From assembly GCA_015057525.1 (NCBI GenBank), contig SVEE01000002.1:4767-68766 (forward strand): 64,000 bases of DNA. Reading direction: 5' to 3'. Positions 1-63,608 of this stretch are shown here, in pieces (position 1 is the stretch's first letter; every line of letters starts with the position of its first letter). The position numbers and the translations under genes are program-made. This DNA comes from Lachnospiraceae bacterium. GTDB lineage: Bacteria > Bacillota > Clostridia > Lachnospirales > Lachnospiraceae. The notes under the pieces are model-generated. The model had not been told where the DNA came from and searched no databases. It saw only the letters and a list, made by a program, of their open reading frames with translations.

Positions 1-1299
1 AAGGATATTGCTACTGAACAAACTCAGGCTGAGGCACAGTATAATATATTGACTAGCAATTTGACTAGAAGTATAGATAGTATGTATAAGCAGGGGGATG
101 TTACGGATGCAAAATTGCAAAAAGTTATAGAAAACTATGAAAATTATTATGATGATACTCTAGATTTAACTTTATGGCGTGGAGAAATAAGTGTATATCC
201 AAAAGATGAGGAAGTATTAAGAGATTGGAATCCTATAGCTGGTAAAAATGAACTCATAATAGAAGGCAAAGATAATAAGATAATTACAATTCAAGGTACG
301 CTGTATGAAGGTGATGAAATTCTTTTTTTACGTTGTGAAAAAAAATTAACAAAACTTGCACAAGTGTGGGATAAGCTTCAGGCTAAATATTTGGTAATCA
401 GCCTTTCTTTTTCTTTTGTTTTAGCTGTTTTTCTCTTCATATTATTAAAGAAGACTATGAAACCAATAGAGGAGCTAACACAGGTTGTTGATAATATGGC
501 AGAAGGCAATCTGGAAAGTCGAGCATTGGAGCATGGAAAAGATGAGATTGCAACTCTAGGAAGACATTTTAATCAGATGGCAGATAAGATACAGGAGAAT
601 ATTCTGTTGATTCAAAGTGAAGCAGCAGTGAAACAAGAATTTGTTGATAACTTTGCTCACGAATTAAAAAGTCCATTGACCAGCATATATGGATTTGCTG
701 AATATATTCAAAAGGCAAATGTGTCAGAAGACGAGAAGATACAGTGTATGAGCTATATTATGGAGGAATCTAAACTTTTGTTACAATTATCGTATTCCTT
801 ACTAGATATGGCTAAGATAAGAAATGAAGAAATTGATATAGAAGAAATTTCATTGGATGATATAGAAGAACAGATAAAAAAACGAATGGAGACATTGTGT
901 CAGCAACGAAAAGTTACACTTACTTGTAATAGAAGTGTGCAAAATATGTATGCTAAAGAAGATTTACTGTACAGTTTATTATGTAATCTTATTCAAAATG
1001 CCATATATTCTTGCGAAAATGGTGGTGCTGTATCCTGGGGCGTGGATGATAAGGATGATAAAATTCGAATTTTTGTTGAAGACAATGGTTGTGGCATGAC
1101 CAAAGAACAGGTAAAACGTGTAACGGAACCTTTTTTTAGGGTGGATAAGTCAAGAAGACGTGAAGAGGGTAGAACTGGTTTGGGTCTTGCAATATGTAAC
1201 CAAATTGTGGAGTATCACAACGGGCAGATGGACATTAAATCAGAAATTAACAAGGGAACCATAGTTACAGTTTTTATTCCAAAAAAGTTTACCGTTTGA
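1..1299 (+). CDS. Two-component sensor histidine kinase (HAMP-HisKA-HATPase_c), 5'-truncated by the window edge
   Basis: Frame is open from base 1 (KDIATEQTQ...). TM segment YLVISLSFSFVLAVFLFILL is followed by HAMP (KPIEELTQVV...DEIATLGRHFNQMA), H-box FAHELKSPL, N-box NLIQNA, G1 EDNGCG and G2 GLGLAI. Confidence 0.93.
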   Translation, partial: KDIATEQTQAEAQYNILTSNLTRSIDSMYKQGDVTDAKLQKVIENYENYYDDTLDLTLWRGEISVYPKDEEVLRDWNPIAGKNELIIEGKDNKIITIQGTLYEGDEILFLRCEKKLTKLAQVWDKLQAKYLVISLSFSFVLAVFLFILLKKTMKPIEELTQVVDNMAEGNLESRALEHGKDEIATLGRHFNQMADKIQENILLIQSEAAVKQEFVDNFAHELKSPLTSIYGFAEYIQKANVSEDEKIQCMSYIMEESKLLLQLSYSLLDMAKIRNEEIDIEEISLDDIEEQIKKRMETLCQQRKVTLTCNRSVQNMYAKEDLLYSLLCNLIQNAIYSCENGGAVSWGVDDKDDKIRIFVEDNGCGMTKEQVKRVTEPFFRVDKSRRREEGRTGLGLAICNQIVEYHNGQMDIKSEINKGTIVTVFIPKKFTV

Positions 1300-1314
1300 T
1301 TACTTTTTCTTTAT
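1288..1314 (+). promoter_or_regulatory. Candidate OmpR/PhoB-type direct-repeat box (TTTAC/ATTAC/TTTAT, 11-bp period)
   Basis: TTTAC 1288-1292, ATTAC 1299-1303 and TTTAT 1310-1314 overlap the kinase stop codon; a -10-like TATGGT follows at 1317-1322. Confidence 0.35.
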
Positions 1315-1390
1315 TGTATGGTTAGAAGGGTATTGTATCCTATATCTACCATGGTAAATAAAAGAAAAATAATGAAAAGGAGAAATTGAT

Positions 1391-2521
1391 ATGAGAAAGA
1401 AAAAGGGAACAATAGCAACTTTAGCATTAGCCAGTGCAATCGTGGTAAGTGGTGCTGTTGGATTACATGTAAGTATGGCACATGATATGCAAAAGGAACA
1501 GGTAACAGAGGTTGAACAGAATCTGGAAATAAGTACAGAGATGAGTACAGAGGAAACTGCTCAGGCAGATGCACTTCAGGAGGAAACTACTCAGACAGAT
1601 GCACCTCAGGAAGAAACTAGTAATCAGGTTTGGCTGGATGATGAAAGTATTTATTTGCCAGAAGGTGCTGAAATTGTATCAAAAAATGAATATAGCCATG
1701 AAATATCATGGGATAATTACGACATTTGCTATAAGCACTATTCAAATGAGACACAGGAGGATTTAGGATTAGGAAAGCTTAAAACAATTATCGAAGAGAC
1801 CATTGAAAAATATGCAGGTCAGGACTTAGGGGAGTGTTATATGGAAATATTCCTTGAGGACCCAGCAGCATACGAAGATGAAACCCAAGATAATGATGTT
1901 GATTACGATCCTGATATCAATTTTGAAGAAATAGCTGATAATGCTGGAGAAGATGGTGTAGTTGTTATTGAGACTGCAGATGGTGTAACAACTGTTATTG
2001 AGACTGAAAATGGTGTAGCAACTGTTGTTGATAGTTATACAATTGTGGTTGAAAATGAATCTATGCCAGAGGAAGTTCGTGATATGTACACTTTAGATTC
2101 AAAATGCTATCAAGTACATATTTTAACTGATAATCAAAGATATGATATATGGGTTGATAGCTTGACAGGAGAAGTGACTGTATTTAATTATGAGGATGAA
2201 ACATTAGGTACTTTCACTAATGGATGGGATATTTCGTATGAGGCTGACGCTGCGGAATGTCAGCTTTCAGACGAGGAGCAAAAGGAATATGATGCTATCA
2301 TAGAAAACTTTATTTCTGATGATTTAAAGTTAGGTAATGTAGAAAAAATCTATTCTCAGTATGCAGACGTAAGCTACAATGGTGTTAGTGGAAATAATAT
2401 ACGTGCTTATTATACAGTAGTATGTAAGACTGATGAAGGTGCTGTGGTAGAAGTCTCATTTGATATTGGAGAAAAAATAGTGACTTCATTTAGAACAAGC
2501 GTACAGTATTTGTCAGAATAA
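1391..2521 (+). CDS. Secreted or membrane-anchored acidic protein with PepSY-like motifs
   Basis: RBS AAGGAG. Basic N-terminus plus hydrophobic stretch (MRKKKGTIATLALASAIVVSGAVGL); very Asp/Glu-rich; PepSY-like segment YQVHILTDNQRYDIWVDSLTGEV. Confidence 0.75.
   Translation: MRKKKGTIATLALASAIVVSGAVGLHVSMAHDMQKEQVTEVEQNLEISTEMSTEETAQADALQEETTQTDAPQEETSNQVWLDDESIYLPEGAEIVSKNEYSHEISWDNYDICYKHYSNETQEDLGLGKLKTIIEETIEKYAGQDLGECYMEIFLEDPAAYEDETQDNDVDYDPDINFEEIADNAGEDGVVVIETADGVTTVIETENGVATVVDSYTIVVENESMPEEVRDMYTLDSKCYQVHILTDNQRYDIWVDSLTGEVTVFNYEDETLGTFTNGWDISYEADAAECQLSDEEQKEYDAIIENFISDDLKLGNVEKIYSQYADVSYNGVSGNNIRAYYTVVCKTDEGAVVEVSFDIGEKIVTSFRTSVQYLSE
1551..1620 (+). repeat. 30-nt in-frame tandem repeat (about 2.3 copies)
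   Basis: aggaaactgctcaggcagatgcacttcagg / aggaaactactcagacagatgcacctcagg / aagaaactag, encoding ETAQADALQE-ETTQTDAPQE-ET. Confidence 0.9.
1952..2035 (+). repeat. 27-30-nt in-frame tandem repeat (3 copies)
   Basis: Encodes DGVVVIETA / DGVTTVIETE / NGVATVVDS. Confidence 0.85.
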
Positions 2522-2545
2522 GAGATTTATAATTGTATTTAAAGG

Positions 2546-2587
2546 GCTCTAAACTTTACTTGGGGGGTAAGGTTTAGAGCTTTTTTT
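2546..2587 (+). terminator. Rho-independent terminator
   Basis: GCTCTAAACTTTAC pairs with GTAAGGTTTAGAGC (one G-U), followed by T7. Confidence 0.9.
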
Positions 2588-2606
2588 AAAACGGATAGTA
2601 TTGTAG

Positions 2607-2634
2607 TGGCAAGAAAGACGAAATTCTGATATAA
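2607..2634 (+). promoter_or_regulatory. sigma-A promoter (extended -10) for the EAL-protein operon
   Basis: TGGCAA-16-TATAAT with a TGn extension (TGaTATAAT, 2626-2634). Confidence 0.55.
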
Positions 2635-2708
2635 TAGTAGATAGATGATTTAAGGAACGGCGAATATTGTCTTGATAATATGGTTTGCTGTTTTTGGGGG
2701 AGAAATTA

Positions 2709-4700
2709 ATGAGTTATTATAAAGAGAAAAGAATACGAAAACTTAAGAAAAAACGTATATGGCCATCTATACTTGGCTTGTTTTTGATTGCAATTATATT
2801 AGAAACTATTGTTTTTGCATTTTTGGGATTATATGTCATGGACTTGATAGATAGAAAATTCCATGATTCATATAAATCCTCTTATAATATTGCCGAATTA
2901 ATGTTTTCTGACGGTTTGGAAAACTTTACTGCTGAAGACTTGGAACAATATATATATATGGACAATAAAATTTTAGCAGTGTCCGTTATAGACAGCAATA
3001 ATGAAGTAGTATGGTCTAACAATAACTACAAACCAGACATAAATGATATTCGCATTTATTATGATCAGCTGGGGATTTATGGGGATAATTTCGAACTGAT
3101 TATTGAGTCTGATGGACGTGATATATTTGAAGAATTAATTGATGAAGTAGCTTTATCTGATGATGTTTTGACTTGTATTGGTAATGATTTTATTACAGAT
3201 GGTCAGCGACTTCTCACTGAGAGAAATGTTCCTATTATCAGCTCTGATATATGGATGGCAATATATTACGAAGATTATTATGTTTTAGTTTTGAATGAAA
3301 TTTCAGTACTAAATAATGATATATATATGGTAGTCATTACAATTGTATTGATGCTTATTCTTTCTCTGGTATTTATAATTTATTATATTGCATCTATAGT
3401 TGGCATTATTCATAATCAGAAAAGAATTACCAAGGTTCTTTATACAGACATTGTTACAGGTGGATATAACTGGCTTTATTTTACTAAAAAGGGAGACAAA
3501 CTTCTTAAGAAAAATAAAGGTAAGTATAATTATGCCATGGTAGCAGTAAGAATGGAAAAATATAGAAGCTTCTGTACTTGCTTTGGTGTAAAAGAGGGAG
3601 AAGAACTCTTAGAAAACTTTTACTGGTCCTTAAAGAGAATAATCAAGAAAAAAGAATTTATGGCACATCATGATGAAGCAGATTTTGGTATTTTGCTTAC
3701 ATATTTGGATGAAGAAGAGCTATATTCAAGAATCAACTATATTGAGCAGGTACTTAAAAATGTAGTACCCAATATAAAGATGTATTTTAGGTTTGGTGTA
3801 TGTATAGCAGATTCCAATGACAGGTCCGTTGATAGTTTATATAACAATTCAATAACAGCTTTAGATTTATTGGCAGAAGATTCAGAACAAAAGATTACAT
3901 CTTACGATGTTGAGATGAAAAAACAACAGCTTTGGGAGCGCAAGGTTGAGAATGAGATGGATAAGGCACTTGTTACTAGGCAGTTTAAGCTTTATCTCCA
4001 GCCTAAATATAGTACTAAGGAAGAAAATCTTGCAGGTGCAGAGGCATTAGTAAGATGGGTACATCCAGAAGATGGTCTTATTCCGCCTAATAAGTTTATT
4101 CCTATATTTGAACGTAATGGATTCATACTTCAATTAGATGACTATATGATTGAAGAGGTTGCAAGACAGCAATCAAAATGGCTTGGCGAAGGGAAAGAGT
4201 TGTTCCCTATATCTGTAAATGTTTCTCGTGCACATTTTACAAGAGAAGATTTAGCTGGACATATATGTGGAATTGTAGACAGATATAATGTGCCGCACAA
4301 ATTTATTGAGCTTGAGCTTACAGAAAGTGCATTCTTTGATGACAAATATGTGCTTATTGATACAGTTAAAAAGCTTAGAGAATACGGCTTTATTGTTTCT
4401 ATGGATGATTTTGGAGCAGGATATTCCTCTCTTAACTCCCTAAAGGAACTTTCCATAGATGTTCTTAAGATTGATGCGGATTTCTTTAGAGGTGTGGATT
4501 CAGTAGAGCGAGGTATGCTTATTGTTTCAGAGGTTATTGATTTAGCAAAGAAACTTGATATGAAGATTGTTGCAGAAGGTATCGAAAGTAAGGAACAAGT
4601 TGATTTCTTAACACAGCAGGAGTGTGATCTTATTCAGGGGTATTATTATGCTAAACCTATGTCTATAGACGAATTTGAAGAAAAATATAAAGAGATTTAA
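2709..4700 (+). CDS. Membrane-bound c-di-GMP phosphodiesterase (2 TM + extracellular domain, degenerate GGDEF, EAL)
   Basis: ATG 2709 follows GGGAGA. Two hydrophobic segments; GGDEF site replaced by HDEADF; intact EAL motifs AEALVRW, VNVS, ELELTES, DDFGAGYSS, LKID, AEGIE, QGYY. Confidence 0.9.
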   Translation: MSYYKEKRIRKLKKKRIWPSILGLFLIAIILETIVFAFLGLYVMDLIDRKFHDSYKSSYNIAELMFSDGLENFTAEDLEQYIYMDNKILAVSVIDSNNEVVWSNNNYKPDINDIRIYYDQLGIYGDNFELIIESDGRDIFEELIDEVALSDDVLTCIGNDFITDGQRLLTERNVPIISSDIWMAIYYEDYYVLVLNEISVLNNDIYMVVITIVLMLILSLVFIIYYIASIVGIIHNQKRITKVLYTDIVTGGYNWLYFTKKGDKLLKKNKGKYNYAMVAVRMEKYRSFCTCFGVKEGEELLENFYWSLKRIIKKKEFMAHHDEADFGILLTYLDEEELYSRINYIEQVLKNVVPNIKMYFRFGVCIADSNDRSVDSLYNNSITALDLLAEDSEQKITSYDVEMKKQQLWERKVENEMDKALVTRQFKLYLQPKYSTKEENLAGAEALVRWVHPEDGLIPPNKFIPIFERNGFILQLDDYMIEEVARQQSKWLGEGKELFPISVNVSRAHFTREDLAGHICGIVDRYNVPHKFIELELTESAFFDDKYVLIDTVKKLREYGFIVSMDDFGAGYSSLNSLKELSIDVLKIDADFFRGVDSVERGMLIVSEVIDLAKKLDMKIVAEGIESKEQVDFLTQQECDLIQGYYYAKPMSIDEFEEKYKEI

Positions 4701-9166: not shown

Positions 9167-9766
9167 ATGGCACTTATTGATTATAAATGGGACAAATTAT
9201 TGCGAATAAAGACAACGGGGTGGGATGCGTCTAATTCAGATAAAAACCATTATCCATATGAACCCACGTCCTATTCTGTATTAGAAAGATTAGCATTTAG
9301 TGGTTACATAAACAAAAAGAATGTTTTGCTTGATTATGGTTGCGGAAAAGGAAGAGTAGATTTCTTTATGTCGTATCAGACAAGGTGCAAAACCATAGGT
9401 GTGGAGTACGATGAGAGACTTTTTGTTGACGCAATAGATAATTCTAAATATGCTATTTCAGGCAAAAAAACTTCCTTTTGCTACGAGAATGCTGAGGATT
9501 ATGAGGTGCCAACAACTGTAGACAGATGTTACTTTTTTAATCCTTTTTCGGTGGAAATATTAAAAAAAGTAATTTCCAAGGTAATGAAATCATATTATGA
9601 CCGGCCAAGGGAGATTCTTATGTTTTTTTATTATCCCTCAGATGAATATGTTGCTCATTTGATGACAGAATCTGAATTAGAATTTTTAGATGAAATTGAT
9701 TGTACAGATTTATTTGACTCTTTCAACGAGAGAGAAAGAATAGTTATATTTAAGGTGGCACTGTAA
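9167..9766 (+). CDS. Class I SAM-dependent methyltransferase
   Basis: Motif I LLDYGCGKGR, acidic post-I GVEYD, YFFNPF. Confidence 0.8.
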   Translation: MALIDYKWDKLLRIKTTGWDASNSDKNHYPYEPTSYSVLERLAFSGYINKKNVLLDYGCGKGRVDFFMSYQTRCKTIGVEYDERLFVDAIDNSKYAISGKKTSFCYENAEDYEVPTTVDRCYFFNPFSVEILKKVISKVMKSYYDRPREILMFFYYPSDEYVAHLMTESELEFLDEIDCTDLFDSFNERERIVIFKVAL

Positions 9767-9768
9767 CC

Positions 9769-9811
9769 AAAAAAGAAAGCATTAATTTAACAGATTATGC
9801 TTTCTTTTTTT
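9769..9811 (+). terminator. Rho-independent terminator
   Basis: AAAAAAGAAAGCAT / ATGCTTTCTTTTTT inverted repeat ending in a T-run. Confidence 0.8.
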
Positions 9812-9933
9812 ATTAAAAACTTTCATTCAATGCTTGAGTTAATTTAATATAAGATATATAATAGTATATGTATGTTTAAAAATAGGATGACTATGTCTAC
9901 ATATAGATTAATATAGACAACTTGGAGGATATT

Positions 9934-22574: not shown

Positions 22575-23000
22575 ATGGAACTTAATTCTAATCAGATTCA
22601 GGAAATATTGCCTCACAGATATCCTTTTGCACTTGTAGATAAGATAACTGATTATGAGCCAGGCAAGTTTGCTAAGGGTATTAAGTGTGTAACTGTTAAC
22701 GAGATGCATTTTTGTGGACATTTTCCACAGCAGCATGTTATGCCAGGTGTACTTATAATAGAAGCTCTTGCTCAGGTTGGTGCAATTGCAATCCTTTCAG
22801 AGGAAGAGAATAAAGGTAAAATTGCATTCTTTGGTGGAATCAAGAATGCTCGTTTTAAGAAGCAGGTTGTTCCTGGAGATGTCCTTGAGCTTGAGTGCGA
22901 GCTTACTGAGAGAAAAGGTCCTGTTGGATACGGTAAGGCAACTGCTAAAGTAGATGGTAAGGTAGCTGTTGTAGCGGAGCTTACATTTGCAGTAAATTAA
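22575..23000 (+). CDS. fabZ: 3-hydroxyacyl-ACP dehydratase
   Basis: [15 protein letters not shown]...[17 protein letters not shown]; ATG 22575 follows GGGAGG. Confidence 0.96.
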
Positions 23001-23028
23001 TATTTAAATATAATTACGAAAAAGTGAC

Positions 23029-23237
23029 GAAAAACGCAGTATGGCTATTGATATAAAACATATATTATGCAAACAACTGCAACGCGCTGACAAACTAACC
23101 AGTAACTACGACTAAGACTCTCAGGAATGCCTTCGAGCCTAAGTCTTCATAACTATTGGATTTTGTCAGTCGCTAAAACCGCAGTTCAAATATTTGCATA
23201 CTATATGTTTTATGCCAATAATCATACTGCGTTTTTC
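23029..23237. repeat. 209-nt long imperfect palindrome (candidate structured RNA or non-autonomous palindromic element)
   Basis: Perfect 15-bp ends GAAAAACGCAGTATG / CATACTGCGTTTTTC. Arms 23029-23073 and 23193-23237 pair at 40/45 positions. Inner stems AACTGC/GCAGTT, CTGACAAA/TTTGTCAG and AAGACT/AGTCTT. Confidence 0.85.
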
Positions 23238-23349
23238 TGTTTGATATAGGATATTTTTGTTTTAATTAATATTATATGTTTTCTAGGACATAGGGCTATT
23301 ATCCATAATAGAAATTATTGGCACATTATGTCAACTTAAATTGCTTTAC

Positions 23350-23596
23350 TGGGTCTATGGAAGAAAAGTTGTTATCAAGACCCACATGATGAGGTTTTAC
23401 TTGTATTATGTAAATTGAAGTATGCTTAAATGGGTCTCCATAAAAAAAGTTGTATTCTGTACCCAGATGTTTTTTGAAGTTTGGGTCTAGATAGCAGCTT
23501 TTTTTATAGAGACCCATAGTTGTTTTCTTACATGAGTTTGAGCGGTATATTTGCCAGAAAATGGGTCTGTGGAATAAGATTGTTTCCATAGACCCA
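23350..23596. repeat. Array of four 35-bp palindromic-ended units, TGGGTCT-N21-AGACCCA
   Basis: Units at 23350-23384, 23431-23465 (ends GTACCCA), 23482-23516 and 23562-23596; gaps of 46, 16 and 45 nt. Confidence 0.88.
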
Positions 23597-23622
23597 TTTG
23601 ATTTATGTGCAGAAATTCACTC

Positions 23623-23650
23623 TTGAAATAATACTTCTAGTTGTTATAAT
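23623..23650 (+). promoter_or_regulatory. sigma-A promoter (extended -10) for the HAD-DUF6472-aroK genes
   Basis: TTGAAA-16-TATAAT with TGt immediately upstream of the -10. Confidence 0.65.
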
Positions 23651-23704
23651 ATTAGAGATATTTACAACATTATATAGATTTATAATATGTTCAAAGGTGA
23701 TTTT

Positions 23705-24373
23705 ATGGATAGGGTTGAAGAAATTTTAAAGAATTTAGAACCTATAATTAAAGATAAAAAAGGTCTTATTTTTGATGTGGATGGAACTTTGCTTGATAGT
23801 ATGCCTATGTGGAAAAGGCTTGATGTTGAATATCTTTCAAGTTTAGGATTAATTCCAGAGCCTGATTTTCAAAATAAGGTTAAGATGATGACTATGCTAG
23901 ATGCTGCAAGGTACATAAATAACTATTTTGGTTTGGATAAAGAACCAGAGGTAATTGCTAAAGAAATTCAGGATATTGCCTATAGCTATTATGAGAACGA
24001 GCTTCTTATTAAACCAGGGGCATTTGAGCTACTTGCAGAATTAAAAAAACGTGGATATAAAATGGTTGTTGGAACCGCCAATGAGTATGATATGTGTAAG
24101 AGTGCATTGGTCAGAAATAATGTGATGGATTTTTTTGAGGATTTGGTGACGTGTTCTATGGTGGGCTGTAGCAAGGAAAGACCGGATGTATACTTACTTG
24201 CTTGCGAAAAGATGGGACTTAGCATGGAGGATTGCGTTATATTTGAGGATTCATATTTTGCCATAAATACAGCTACGAAAGCTGGATTTTCCGTAATAGG
24301 TGTATATGATGATACGGAAGAAGAAAATTGGGAAAATATTTGTAAAATAACAGATGGTCAGGTGGTGTTTTAA
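23705..24373 (+). CDS. HAD-superfamily phosphatase (beta-PGM/CbbY-like)
   Basis: Motif I IFDVDGTLLDS, motif III K(ERPDVY), motif IV IFEDS; ATG 23705 follows AAAGGTG. Confidence 0.9.
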   Translation: MDRVEEILKNLEPIIKDKKGLIFDVDGTLLDSMPMWKRLDVEYLSSLGLIPEPDFQNKVKMMTMLDAARYINNYFGLDKEPEVIAKEIQDIAYSYYENELLIKPGAFELLAELKKRGYKMVVGTANEYDMCKSALVRNNVMDFFEDLVTCSMVGCSKERPDVYLLACEKMGLSMEDCVIFEDSYFAINTATKAGFSVIGVYDDTEEENWENICKITDGQVVF

Positions 24374-36082: not shown

Positions 36083-37048
36083 ATGGTGTGGACAAAATTA
36101 ACAATCGACACAACAGTTGAGGCTGTTGATATTCTCAGTGCCTTTCTTGATGATTTAGGTGTTGAGGGAATTATGATTGAGGATAATGTTCCACTTACAG
36201 ATGAAGAAAAACAGGCTATGTTTGTAGATATTCCTCTTATTGAAGGAGAGGATGATGGAACTGCAAAGGTTTCATGCTTTATAGATGATAGCTTTGATCT
36301 TGACACTTTAAAGGCGGATATAGTTGCAGAACTTACCCGCCTTGAAGAGTTTATACCTGTAGGTACAAAGGACATTTCCTTAAGCAATACAGAGGATAAG
36401 GATTGGATTAATAACTGGAAACAGTTTTTTAAACCATTCAGATTATATGACAATATAGTGATAAAGCCTACATGGGAGGAGCTTGATGATACAAAAGAGG
36501 GTGATATGATAGTTGAGATTGACCCTGGTATCGCTTTTGGAACAGGTTCCCATGAAACAACAAAGCTTTGTATCGGTCAGCTTAAAAAATATCTTAAGCA
36601 AGGTGATACAGTGTTTGATGTAGGTTCAGGAAGTGGCATTTTATCTATAATAAGCGTTATGCTTGGCGCAGGATTTGTACACGGTATGGATATAGATGAG
36701 GTTGCTGTACGTGCCAGTCTTGAAAATAGAGAAGTAAATAACATGACAGAAGAGCAGCTTGTTCTTACATGTGGAAATCTTCTTGGGGATGATGATGAGG
36801 CAGCAAAGATGGCACTTGATGTAAATAAAGGTGAGAAATATGATATTGTTGTAGCTAATATTTTAGCAGATGTCATAATTCCTCTTTCAGGAGTAATCAG
36901 ACCATTTCTTAAAGAAGATGGATATTTTATTACTTCAGGAATTATAAATATGAAAGAGGAGGCTGTTAAGGAAGCACTTCTTTCAAATGGATTTGAAATA
37001 GTAGATGTTGTTCATATGAACGACTGGGTTTCTATTATTGCCAAATAA
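36083..37048 (+). CDS. prmA: 50S ribosomal protein L11 methyltransferase
   Basis: W..NWKQFFKPF, IDPGIAFGTGSHETT, DVGSGSGILS, VANILAD, SGII. Confidence 0.95.
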   Translation: MVWTKLTIDTTVEAVDILSAFLDDLGVEGIMIEDNVPLTDEEKQAMFVDIPLIEGEDDGTAKVSCFIDDSFDLDTLKADIVAELTRLEEFIPVGTKDISLSNTEDKDWINNWKQFFKPFRLYDNIVIKPTWEELDDTKEGDMIVEIDPGIAFGTGSHETTKLCIGQLKKYLKQGDTVFDVGSGSGILSIISVMLGAGFVHGMDIDEVAVRASLENREVNNMTEEQLVLTCGNLLGDDDEAAKMALDVNKGEKYDIVVANILADVIIPLSGVIRPFLKEDGYFITSGIINMKEEAVKEALLSNGFEIVDVVHMNDWVSIIAK

Positions 37049-37079
37049 AAAAATAGCACTCTGTGAGTGCTATTTTTTT
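37047..37079. terminator. Terminator-like hairpin after prmA whose stem matches the CIRCE arms
   Basis: A7-TAGCACTC-TGT-GAGTGCTA-T7. Confidence 0.75.
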
Positions 37080-37155
37080 ACTTGTCGTTGTTTTTTGCCT
37101 GCATATCGTGATATACTATAGGACGGATAAAATCTTAAATATGATGGAGATAAAT

Positions 37156-40248: not shown

Positions 40249-40301
40249 AAAAGAAGTGGAAAGAATAAGGTTTAAACAACCTTATTCTTTCCACTTCTTT
40301 T
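40249..40301. terminator. Perfect 24-bp inverted repeat between the convergent thiI and DGC genes
   Basis: AAAAGAAGTGGAAAGAATAAGGTT-taaac-AACCTTATTCTTTCCACTTCTTTT. Confidence 0.8.
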
Positions 40302-60142: not shown

Positions 60143-60192
60143 TCATAAAAAAGTAGAGAGGGATACTCTCTATTTTTTTATGGTGGTGAAAT

Positions 60193-63476: not shown

Positions 63477-63490
63477 TCACACTAAACAAG

Positions 63491-63520
63491 AAACCGCAGG
63501 TCTTAGACTTGCGGTTTTTT
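63491..63520 (+). terminator. Rho-independent terminator
   Basis: AAACCGCAGGTC-TTA-GACTTGCGGTTT followed by T-run. Confidence 0.9.
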
Positions 63521-63608
63521 CTTTGTTCTAAAATATTGCAGATGAAAAACCAAAATGTTATATTAAATTATAGTTGTTACAATGAGAATTACTCTTGGAG
63601 GATTTAAA

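What the first reader, a model, noticed from the sequence alone, without database searches (positions are those of the whole stretch)
23029..23237. 209-nt long hairpin starting 29 nt after the fabZ stop codon
Seen: perfect 15-bp terminal inverted repeat; 45-nt outer arms with 40 Watson-Crick pairs plus 2 G-U; inner helices AACTGC/GCAGTT, CTGACAAA/TTTGTCAG and AAGACT/AGTCTT separated by asymmetric loops (1x6, 6x11). The tip carries a near-direct repeat, CTAAGACT (23112) / CTAAGTCT (23139). Most mismatches are transitions, as expected for a maintained or recently decaying stem. No TSD. Established: a ~190-200-nt rod with a central bubble is the 6S RNA architecture, and long palindromes also typify REPIN/MITE-like elements. 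Inference: it is either a rod-shaped ncRNA or a dispersed non-autonomous element, and it may stand in for the canonical terminator I cannot find after fabZ.
Basis: partly seen in the sequence, partly recalled or inferred. Interest (0 to 1): 0.65.

Follow-up and report, generated by a model that had tools for sequence, protein, structure and literature searches.

The report
Repeat hairpin nested in fab terminator
The long hairpin after fabZ is one copy of a previously uncatalogued family of palindromic repeat elements scattered about 30 times through related gut Lachnospiraceae genomes; it sits inside the fab operon's terminator, and the family matters because its hairpins appear to grow by copying their flanks backwards and shrink by losing their centres.

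Summary
Window 23029-23237 folds into a 209-nt rod (-80.6 kcal/mol, z -11.8), with the stated 15-bp perfect base and 40 WC + 2 G-T pairs in the 45-nt outer arms.

It is not a 6S-like RNA. There is no Rfam hit, and the inner about 157 nt (23055-23211) is a dispersed repeat. Its depth in gut metagenomes is 50-200x that of the flanks. A sister Wujia MAG holds at least 28 copies, and other Lachnospiraceae carry it too.

The family has a 129-nt asymmetric core. Its helices covary strictly Watson-Crick (23 of 36 pairs, 97.7% of cells paired). It has about 21-nt inverted termini and no direct target duplication.

Each copy has its own near-perfect basal arms of 20-100 nt. At two loci the arms include inverted copies of the conserved 3' ends of neighbouring genes (cobB, prs), and these copies are absent from the orthologous empty sites. 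The palindromes therefore grow by inverted duplication.

Sister lineages at the fabZ site carry centrally deleted remnants. All of them keep the basal stem and T-run, which is the likely fab terminator.

No transposase partner was found, and transcription could not be tested.

Verdict: a new variant of the MITE/REP/SPRITE kind of repeat, of moderate to good interest.

The parts
22575..23000 (+). fabZ, the last gene of the fab cluster. The hairpin begins 29 nt after its stop codon.
   Evidence: ORF list; 141-aa FabA/FabZ-family product; 99% identical to FabZ of Wujia sp. MAGs.
23029..23237 (+). The whole 209-nt hairpin, which is the finding.
   Evidence: Fold at -80.6 kcal/mol, z -11.8; arm count.
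23029..23043 (+). 5' half of the basal stem (GAAAAACGCAGTATG). It is the ancestral terminator stem with an A-run.
   Evidence: Present in all sister alleles whether or not they carry the core.
23223..23243 (+). 3' half of the basal stem (CATACTGCGTTTTTC) running into the T-run TTTTTCTGTTT. This is the inferred fab-operon intrinsic terminator.
   Evidence: Conserved in L001, L113-116 and L127-131. The changes seen in relatives are C>T changes that give G-U pairs on the transcribed strand. No other terminator lies between fabZ and the next promoter.
23044..23054 (+). Locus-specific inner arm, 5' side (GCTATTGATAT).
   Evidence: Not shared with other copies. It differs concertedly from the 'type B' arms of L130/L001.
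23212..23222 (+). Locus-specific inner arm, 3' side (ATGCCAATAAT).
   Evidence: Same as for the 5' inner arm.
23055..23211 (+). The family-conserved repeat unit, made of the inverted termini plus the core.
   Evidence: BLAST to 30 other copies covers hairpin positions about 23-187. Metagenome depth over this stretch is 50-200x that of the flanks.
23055..23075 (+). Left inverted terminus, AAAACATATATTATGCAAACA.
   Evidence: 20 of 21 positions complementary to 23191-23211. The family consensus is A(A/T)AACATATAA-ATGCAAACA.
23191..23211 (+). Right inverted terminus, TATTTGCATACTATATGTTTT.
   Evidence: Remnants of it are retained in the core-less alleles L128 and L130.
23069..23197 (+). The 129-nt asymmetric core rod: six helices with conserved internal loops.
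   Evidence: Covariance model R1 scores 144 bits on the + strand and 27 bits on the - strand. 36 pairs, 23 with compensatory changes, 97.7% of cells paired.
23110..23145 (+). Apical hairpin GACTAAGACTCTCAGGAATGCCTTCGAGCCTAAGTC, the most conserved part of the family.
   Evidence: Invariant in 31 copies from several genera. Variant subfamilies change it in a compensatory way: CTC/GAG to CGC/GCG and AGG/CCT to AAG/CTT.
23623..23650 (+). Promoter-like site TTGAAA-16-TGTTATAAT of the downstream HAD-hydrolase gene (23687-24373). It shows that the fab transcript should end before it.
   Evidence: Promoter scan, 11 of 12 matches with an extended -10. The site is conserved in L001 and the other relatives.

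Best explanation
The hairpin is one copy of a dispersed, non-coding palindromic repeat family of gut Lachnospiraceae, lying inside the intrinsic terminator of the fab operon.

Shown:
(1) The inner about 157 nt (23055-23211) is multi-copy. A sister Wujia genome holds at least 28 copies, and several other genera carry it. It consists of about 21-nt inverted termini and a 129-nt asymmetric rod whose helices are kept by strictly Watson-Crick compensatory changes.
(2) Copies sit almost always just past gene 3' ends, often between convergent genes. They lie in either orientation, next to unrelated housekeeping genes.
(3) Each copy has its own basal arms of 20-100 nt, almost perfectly complementary and unrelated between copies. 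At two loci the arms contain an inverted copy of the conserved 3' coding end of the neighbouring gene, and that copy is missing from orthologous empty sites. So the arms are made by inverted duplication of flanking DNA.
(4) Copies decay by loss of the centre. This leaves shorter hairpins that keep the arms and pieces of the termini.
(5) At the fabZ site all alleles keep the basal stem and T-run.

Inferred:
- The unit is selfish or structural DNA that must fold as a hairpin (single-stranded DNA or cruciform) to be propagated by a trans-acting activity not yet identified.
- Arm growth and the 'compensatory' changes come from replication template switching within the palindrome.
- In this window the base of the rod plus UUUUUCUGUUU terminates fab transcription, with the element as a passenger in what was the terminator loop.
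For: Multi-copy status:
- Metagenome contig depth is 540-3000 over 23072-23205 against 12-40 in the flanks, with many different flanks.
- There are 29 loci with the exact apex 24-mer and 8 further copies in the same MAG.

Structure:
- 36 pairs, 23 with double changes, 97.7% of cells paired against 25-41% for slid controls. Only 6 G-U cells against 123 double-change cells.

Context:
- About 19 of 22 copies lie at gene 3' ends and about 10 lie between convergent genes.
- The 78 neighbouring proteins are housekeeping proteins; none of the 25 most frequent Pfam families listed (of 121 matched) is a transposase or recombinase family.

Arms:
- 1303 WC, 30 G-T and 50 A-C appositions.
- No similarity between the arms of different copies.
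- Ordinary terminators in the window have stems of 17-24 bp.

Inverted duplication:
- L086: the arm carries the cobB end GEVFSQI*, which is the conserved C-terminus. Empty sites L171-176 have only a 33-40-nt terminator.
- L162: the arm carries the prs end TITANYKPPVVD*, also conserved. Empty sites L177-179 have a 32-nt terminator.

Central deletion:
- L130, L128, L001 and L127/131 form an allelic series at fabZ.
- L162 has a core-deleted remnant in the same intergenic region.

Terminator:
- The basal stem and T-run are conserved in all alleles, and the downstream gene has its own promoter.

Background:
- Template switching can create and perfect hairpin stems in single events (PMC8794818).
- Terminator-like interspersed repeats enriched between convergent genes are known (SPRITE, PMC3049150).
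Against: - No transposase, parent IS or RAYT was found near any copy, so mobility is inferred from distribution only.
- There is no direct target duplication, and no clean pre-insertion site was recovered for the fabZ copy. The 'empty' alleles there look like deletion derivatives.
- The core keeps asymmetric internal loops and is conserved in an orientation-specific way. This would also fit a functional RNA.
- Fragments of other copies occur in metatranscriptome contigs.
- Inverted duplication of a coding end is documented at only two loci. Its polarity relative to the core differs between them, so the mechanism is not pinned down.
- Termination at this hairpin was not measured.
- Most data come from MAGs and short-read assemblies, which break at such repeats.
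Confidence: 0.75

Rival explanations
1. It is a family of structured non-coding RNAs, for example 3'-UTR-embedded or RNase III-processed rods. The conserved 129-nt core acts as RNA, and the variable stems only provide a closing helix or terminator.
For: Covariation supports all six helices, and the internal loops are conserved and asymmetric. The model is strongly strand-specific, 144 against 27 bits. In tandem gene contexts the core is more often sense to the upstream gene, 7 against 2. Pieces of copies occur in metatranscriptome contigs, including a group-2 copy at contig depth 104 inside a flagellar operon.
Against: There are about 30 copies per genome, with presence/absence and deletion polymorphism between close relatives. 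Copies lie in either orientation between convergent genes. No conserved promoter was seen. G-U pairs are almost absent (6 cells against 123 double changes), which is unusual for RNA-level selection. The mismatches that do occur favour A-C on this strand. The arms are built by DNA-level inverted duplication. No Rfam family matches.
Confidence: 0.12
2. It is a host-used DNA site: a protein-binding or cruciform-forming element at the ends of transcription units, in the way REP/BIME bind gyrase, IHF or Pol I. It would be kept for chromosome or topology management rather than as selfish DNA.
For: The apex is invariant over several genera. Watson-Crick pairing is strict, so both strands can extrude. 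Copies are placed between convergent genes, where positive supercoils accumulate.
Against: Copies are lost by central deletion in close relatives without replacement. The distribution among Lachnospiraceae is patchy: no copy was found in about 0.5 Mb of fabZ loci from 80 other species. No binding protein is known.
Confidence: 0.08
3. It is merely an unusually long, locally evolved fabZ terminator hairpin (or an inert decaying palindrome) with no relation to other loci.
For: The basal stem and T-run are a bona fide terminator signature and are conserved in relatives.
Against: The inner 157 nt recurs at 85-92% identity at dozens of unrelated loci and in other genera.
Confidence: 0.02

Closest known systems
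[quoted passage not shown]
   Same: A small AT-rich interspersed repeat of a Firmicute with about 30 copies per genome. It has a long duplex flanked by an A-run and a T-run. It is strongly enriched close to CDS 3' ends and between convergent genes. No TSD and no matching IS were identified, and a possible co-option as a terminator has been proposed.
   Different: SPRITE is one 18-bp duplex plus a U-rich tract. Here the rods are 194-390 nt long, with a 129-nt conserved asymmetric core, covarying helices, and copy-specific arms made by inverted duplication of the flanks. Sequence relatedness to SPRITE was not tested.
MITEs (e.g. Correia, RUP, Chunjie, QMITEs; review PMC10969869)
   Same: Non-coding, under 300 bp, with terminal inverted repeats, multi-copy and intergenic, folding into stable hairpins, and with truncated or decayed copies.
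   Different: MITEs are defined by TIRs shared with a parent IS and by direct target-site duplications. Here the most conserved part is the centre, the termini differ between subfamilies, the flanks are inverted rather than direct repeats, and no parent IS was found.
REP / REPIN-RAYT systems (PMC2817692, PMC5581495)
   Same: Extragenic palindromic repeats that fold as hairpins, are presumably recognised as single-stranded DNA structures by a single-copy trans-acting enzyme, and lie at the ends of transcription units.
   Different: REPs are 20-40 nt units, and REPINs are inverted REP doublets of about 100 nt present in hundreds of copies. Here there is a single long asymmetric core. No RAYT was seen in the neighbourhoods, and the whole genome could not be searched.
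Quasipalindrome template-switch mutagenesis and inverted-repeat expansion (PMC8794818, PMC7202029, PMC13100816)
   Same: A replication-based process that copies one arm of an inverted repeat onto the other. It perfects stems, produces apparent compensatory double changes in one step, and can lengthen arms. This matches the strict Watson-Crick pairing and the inverted copies of gene ends seen here.
   Different: The process is described as a mutational mechanism acting on short repeats. It has not been described as the life cycle of a dispersed element family with 20-100-nt arms.
6S RNA
   Same: A rod about 200 nt long.
   Different: 6S RNA is single-copy, with a large central bubble and its own promoter, and it has Rfam models. 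None of these apply here.

Membership tests
6S RNA | Matches the Rfam 6S covariance models | tested here: not met
   No hit at gathering score in the window. No 6S hit at E<=10 in 22800-23800.
6S RNA | Single-copy gene | tested here: not met
   At least 28 copies in one sister MAG. Metagenome depth is 50-200x that of the flanks.
6S RNA | Large central bubble mimicking an open promoter | tested here: not met
   The centre is a tight hairpin with 1x1 and 2x2 loops and a 4-nt apical loop.
MITE | Terminal inverted repeats | tested here: met
   23055-23075 against 23191-23211, 20 of 21 complementary. The termini differ between subfamilies (Wujia-type against Dorea-type).
MITE | Direct target-site duplication | tested here: not met
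   No direct repeat flanks any copy. The flanks are inverted repeats instead. A palindromic 2-bp AT/TA duplication cannot be excluded.
MITE | Small, non-coding, multi-copy, with presence/absence polymorphism | tested here: met
MITE | Parent insertion sequence with the same termini | tested here: inconclusive
   None of the 25 most frequent Pfam families listed for the 78 neighbouring proteins is a transposase family. A 19-mer scan found only short copies. Whole genomes could not be searched.
REPIN / REP-RAYT | Inverted doublet of short REP units | tested here: not met
   The centre is one asymmetric 129-nt core, not two REPs.
REPIN / REP-RAYT | Cognate RAYT (HUH Y1) gene flanked by the repeats | tested here: inconclusive
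   No Y1_Tnp family appears among the 25 most frequent Pfam families listed for the neighbours. A genome-wide search is not possible with these tools.
Intrinsic (Rho-independent) terminator | Stem directly followed by a U-run, just after the last gene of an operon | tested here: met
   The basal stem ...CAUACUGCG is followed by UUUUUCUGUUU, 29 nt after fabZ. The simple scanner misses it only because the loop exceeds 8 nt.
Intrinsic (Rho-independent) terminator | Conservation of stem and U-run in relatives | tested here: met
   All 5 allele types keep AAAAACGCAGTAT/ATACTG(C/T)GTTTTT plus the T-run. The variants are G-U compatible.
Intrinsic (Rho-independent) terminator | Transcript 3' ends at the U-run | tested here: inconclusive
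   Only three metatranscriptomes hold the locus, at depth 0-4, as contigs without strand information.
SPRITE-like terminator-like interspersed repeat | Enrichment near CDS 3' ends and between convergent genes | tested here: met
   About 19 of 22 copies lie at 3' ends and about 10 of 22 are convergent.
SPRITE-like terminator-like interspersed repeat | Sequence homology to the SPRITE model | not tested
   No SPRITE model or sequence was available in the tools.

The most novel reading that the evidence does not exclude
This may be the first described member of a class of 'self-extending palindromes'. A conserved 129-nt asymmetric hairpin core lands at the ends of transcription units. It seeds outward growth of a near-perfect palindrome by inverted duplication of whatever flanks it, including the last codons of neighbouring genes. 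It then collapses by central deletion into a long-stemmed terminator. This would be a birth-growth-decay cycle that supplies and remodels terminators in Lachnospiraceae, possibly driven by an unidentified structure-specific enzyme.
Probability: 0.3. Interest if true: 0.75.

Novelty: new variant of a known kind. Interest (0 to 1): 0.55.

Why it matters
Small interspersed palindromic repeats are among the least understood parts of bacterial genomes, and almost nothing is known about them in the abundant gut Lachnospiraceae.

This family offers three things that can be tested:
1. A conserved structured core with unusually clean, purely Watson-Crick covariation. It can be used to ask whether covariation reflects RNA selection or DNA template switching.
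2. Direct comparative evidence that long perfect palindromes in a bacterial chromosome arise by inverted duplication of flanks and are trimmed by central deletion.
3. A link between such elements and the origin and turnover of intrinsic terminators.

In practice, the family also breaks short-read assemblies and could be mistaken for an sRNA or miRNA-like hairpin in annotation pipelines.

Tried and rejected
- Rfam at gathering score over the whole window, and at E<=10 around the hairpin, gave only generic miRNA-precursor noise.
- An exact search for the two 15-nt ends with a 150-180-nt gap found nothing in 185k genomes.
- BLAST of the unit against plasmids and phages, and exact scans of viral contigs, found no match.
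- The JGI metagenome scan with the apex gave only 10 loci, mostly one orthologous flagellar-operon site.
- I first read L001 as a pre-insertion empty site, meaning the element had inserted in the loop of a 24-bp terminator. I rejected this for the fabZ site because L130 and L128 keep pieces of the element's termini, so these alleles are deletion derivatives.
- I tested the idea that the arms are pre-existing terminator stems. It is rejected as a general rule. The arms reach 45-100 nt, include coding ends absent from empty sites, and in L168 the element lies between two separate terminators.
- I tested for a fixed polarity of the duplication, which a one-ended HUH-type transfer with fold-back priming would predict. 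It is not supported: L086 and L162 have opposite core orientation with the original arm on the same side.
- G-T against A-C asymmetry as a strand indicator gave only a weak excess of A-C, 50 against 30 in the arms.
- The search for a partner protein among 78 neighbouring ORFs listed no transposase family among the 25 most frequent of 121 Pfam families matched.
- RNA evidence was too sparse.
- Laying metagenome contigs on another copy (L106) gave no empty allele, because the assemblies break at the arms.
- A small ORF starting at the apical ATG was rejected. It has no spacing from the AGGA motif, no fixed stop, and changes between families are paired rather than codon-like.

Full report
**1. 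The observation**

- fabZ is 22575-23000, and the hairpin 23029-23237 begins 29 nt after its stop codon.
- As RNA it folds into one continuous rod of -80.6 kcal/mol. Dinucleotide shuffles give -33.5 +/- 4.0 (z = -11.8), and 0 of 200 do as well.
- The 45-nt outer arms have 40 Watson-Crick, 2 G-T, 2 A-C and 1 other apposition.
- It is the longest inverted repeat in the window and occurs once there.
- Three further independent assemblies encoding an identical FabZ (L110-L112) carry it at 98% identity with both flanks, so it is real and fixed in that species.
- The organism is a Wujia-like Lachnospiraceae from gut metagenomes.

**2. Not a catalogued RNA**

- No Rfam 15 family reaches its gathering score anywhere in the window.
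- A permissive scan of 22800-23800 gives only sub-threshold plant and animal miRNA-precursor models, which is generic hairpin noise, and no 6S model.

**3. The inside of the hairpin is a dispersed repeat**

- I laid the contigs of four gut metagenomes on 22800-23800. Word depth is 12-40 on fabZ and downstream but 540-3000 over 23072-23205. Dozens of contigs leave the core into different flanks.
- An exact scan of one genome per species with the apical 24-mer found 29 loci. Of these, 19 loci (20 copies) are in one MAG, Wujia sp. JAZSEO01. Its fab region is 93% identical in DNA to the window.
- A second scan with a 19-mer from another helix added 8 more copies in that MAG. One is truncated. It also found copies in Acetatifactor and other Lachnospiraceae MAGs.
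- Further copies occur in 'Dorea' MAGs and in mouse-gut Lachnospiraceae. In the latter, one copy sits at a conserved site between flgE and motA.
- BLAST of the window hairpin to these copies covers hairpin positions about 23-187, which is window 23051-23215. The outer about 22 nt on each side are specific to the fabZ locus.
- There is no match in plasmids, phages or viral contigs.
- Covariance model R1 found no further copy in about 0.62 Mb of other loci, including the fabZ regions of 80 other species. The family is therefore lineage-restricted and sparse, roughly one copy per 100 kb.

**4. Anatomy of the family**

- The conserved unit has about 21-nt imperfect inverted termini. In the window these are AAAACATATATTATGCAAACA at 23055-23075 and its complement at 23191-23211.
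- Between them lies a 129-nt asymmetric rod (23069-23197). Its apex is GACTAAGACTCTCAGGAATGCCTTCGAGCCTAAGTC (23110-23145).
- On 36 distinct cores, the consensus structure has 36 pairs in six helices. Of all cells, 97.7% are standard pairs, against 25-41% when partners are slid by 1-3 columns.
- 23 pairs show changes on both sides (123 cells). The covariation score is 0.296 against 0.114 in shuffles, and 0 of 500 shuffles reach it.
- Even the apex covaries in variant subfamilies: CTC/GAG becomes CGC/GCG and AGG/CCT becomes AAG/CTT.
- Only 6 cells are G-U. The few broken pairs are mostly A-C.
- The internal loops are asymmetric and conserved. As a result the model scores 144 bits on the window + strand and 27 bits on the - strand.
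- The termini differ between subfamilies (Wujia-type against Dorea-type). The centre, not the ends, is therefore the conserved part.

**5. Context**

- About 19 of 22 copies examined lie within tens of bases of a gene's stop codon. About 10 lie between convergent genes. The core is found in either orientation.
- The 78 neighbouring proteins are unrelated housekeeping enzymes. None of the 25 most frequent Pfam families listed (of 121 matched) is a transposase or recombinase family.
- About 13 copies have an A-run, a GC-richer stem and a T-run embedded in their arms, as bidirectional terminators do. In L168 the element lies between two separate canonical terminators, so terminator loops are not the only landing sites.

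**6. Copy-specific arms, and how they arise**

- Every Wujia-type copy is a rod of 194-306 nt, and up to about 390 nt.
- Outside the conserved termini, each copy has arms of 20-100 nt that pair almost perfectly: 1303 WC, 30 G-T, 50 A-C, 80 other and 62 gap columns in total. The arms share no similarity between copies.
- Ordinary terminators in the window have stems of 17-24 bp, so these arms are not simply pre-existing terminators.
- Two loci show where the arms come from.
  - **L086.** The element lies between convergent cobB (a Sir2 deacylase) and a membrane-protein gene. One arm contains the last seven codons and stop of cobB (GEVFSQI*), which is the conserved C-terminus of more than 100 orthologues. 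The other arm is its inverted copy. Orthologous sites in two related species have only a 33-40-nt bidirectional terminator between the two stop codons and no inverted copy.
  - **L162.** One arm contains the last about 13 codons of prs (TITANYKPPVVD*), again the conserved C-terminus. The opposite arm holds a partly decayed inverted copy. The empty site in a relative is a 32-nt terminator.
- The arms are therefore produced by inverted duplication of flanking DNA.
- The core has opposite orientation at these two loci while the original arm is on the same side. The duplication thus has no fixed polarity relative to the core. This argues against a directional, element-encoded step.
- It favours generic palindrome extension by replication template switching, a mechanism known to create and perfect stems in single events (PMC8794818; also PMC7202029 and PMC13100816 from their abstracts). 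The same mechanism would explain the near absence of G-U intermediates. This step is inference.

**7. Decay by central deletion, and the fabZ site**

Among lineages whose FabZ is 99% identical to the window's, the site after fabZ exists in five states:

| Allele | State |
|---|---|
| window, L110-112 | Full 209-nt hairpin |
| L130 | 98-nt hairpin. It keeps both outer halves of the termini (AAAATATATAATATG ... CTTATTATATATTTT, 16/21 and 17/21 identical to the window's termini) but has no core |
| L001, L113-116, L129 | 56-nt hairpin, equal to L130 minus its central 35 nt |
| L128 | Equals the window minus 23049-23204, between two CTAT repeats. It retains ATATGTTTT from the right terminus |
| L127, L131 | 38-nt stem-loop |

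- On a tree of the adjacent 1.65 kb, the full copy is nested among these alleles and L130 is basal. The simplest reading is an occupied ancestor followed by independent central deletions.
- A core-deleted remnant with its own arms also lies next to the full copy in L162.
- More distant relatives (FabZ 93-94%) have unrelated ordinary terminators at this position.
- All five alleles keep the basal stem AAAAACGCAGTAT/ATACTG(C/T)GTTTTT followed by a T-run. The two substitutions seen in that stem are C>T changes that leave G-U pairs on the fab-sense strand.
- The next gene (HAD hydrolase, 23687-24373) has its own strong promoter-like site at 23623-23650, which is conserved in relatives.
- I therefore infer that the base of the rod plus UUUUUCUGUUU is the fab-operon terminator, with the repeat unit as a passenger inside it.
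- Transcript data could not test this. The three metatranscriptomes that hold the locus cover it at depth 0-4, as unstranded contigs.

**8. Comparison with known kinds**

- The closest described thing is SPRITE of S. pneumoniae. It has about 30 copies, a long duplex flanked by an A-run and a T-run, and the strongest enrichment between convergent genes near 3' ends. No TSD and no partner IS are known for it, and a terminator role has been suggested (PMC3049150).
- The present family shares all of those properties. It differs in four ways: rods that are many times longer, a conserved asymmetric core with covarying helices, arms made by inverted duplication, and an allelic series of central deletions.
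- It passes some MITE criteria (inverted termini; small, non-coding, multi-copy). It fails the direct-TSD criterion, and no parent IS was found.
- It is not a REP doublet, and no RAYT was seen nearby (PMC2817692, PMC5581495).
- It fails every 6S criterion tested.
- I file it as a new variant of the interspersed palindromic repeat kind, not as a member of any named family.

**9. What remains open**

- How the core gets to new sites.
- Whether one strand functions as RNA. This rival has weak support from the strand-specific loops and the sense bias in tandem contexts.
- Whether growth is stepwise or tied to insertion.
- Whether the hairpin really terminates fab transcription.

The evidence rests largely on MAGs and on only two loci for the duplication mechanism. 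Overall confidence in the identification as a copy of a dispersed palindromic element nested in the terminator is high. Confidence in the mechanistic parts is moderate.

Noticed in passing
window 23351-23595 (units at 23351-23383, ~23432-23464, 23483-23515, 23563-23595): There are four 33-35-nt palindromic units of the form TGGGTCT..(21)..AGACCCA, in orientation + + - -, between the hairpin and the HAD-gene promoter (6 matches against 0.07 expected). Among 1.1 Mb of fetched loci they occur only at this intergenic region. Their number varies between close relatives: 0 in L001, 1 in L127/L128/L131 and 4 in the window species. They could be an operator array or a locally expanding palindrome. The 87-aa ORF on the minus strand over them (23326-23589) looks spurious.
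   Followed up: partly
L180:2410-2795 (GCA_965358015, intergenic region between prs and the convergent AAA_23 gene): At the same intergenic site where L162 carries this family, a genome with 96%-identical prs has an unrelated rod hairpin of about 385 nt (-152 kcal/mol). It has no Rfam match, and its apex has no exact match in the genome collection. It may be a second family of long-hairpin elements.
   Followed up: partly
L162 (reverse strand), about 150-300 nt beyond the full copy, before the convergent gene's stop: A second, core-deleted remnant of the family lies here (…ATATGCAAACA-TTTGACTGC-GTT-GCAGT-TGTTTGCATATAT…). It has its own unique arms of about 45 nt, in tandem with the full copy.
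   Followed up: partly
L084, L087, L098, L108, L132-L140 (flgE-motA intergenic region of mouse/human gut Lachnospiraceae): A GC-richer subfamily copy sits at one conserved site inside a flagellar operon in several species-level genomes, antisense to the operon. Some alleles have an intact 3' arm and others a replaced one. A 631-nt contig containing it has word depth 104 in a probable RNA run (X26).
   Followed up: partly
L117:2234-3151 and L120:2295-3218: In relatives with 94%-identical FabZ, a roughly 305-aa PDDEXK_2 gene (Rpn-type recombination-promoting nuclease or putative transposase) is inserted between fabZ and the HAD gene. So this intergenic region is a repeated landing site for different insertions.
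   Followed up: no
window 40249-40301, 37042-37084, 9764-9815, 63484-63524, 60144-60182: Ordinary terminators of this genome are bidirectional types with unusually long stems (17-24 bp including paired A/T runs); 40249-40301 is a perfect 24-bp stem. Given the central-deletion series seen at fabZ, some of these may be relics of such elements. No terminus-like signature was seen in them.
   Followed up: no
window 23044-23054 / 23212-23222 compared with L130 and L001: The inner arms at the fabZ site differ at 6-7 of 16 positions between lineages (type A, GCTATTGATAT, against type B, ATAGTTATAAT). Within each lineage the two arms still match each other. The A/B distribution does not follow the flanking-gene tree, which suggests concerted arm turnover or recombination.
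   Followed up: partly
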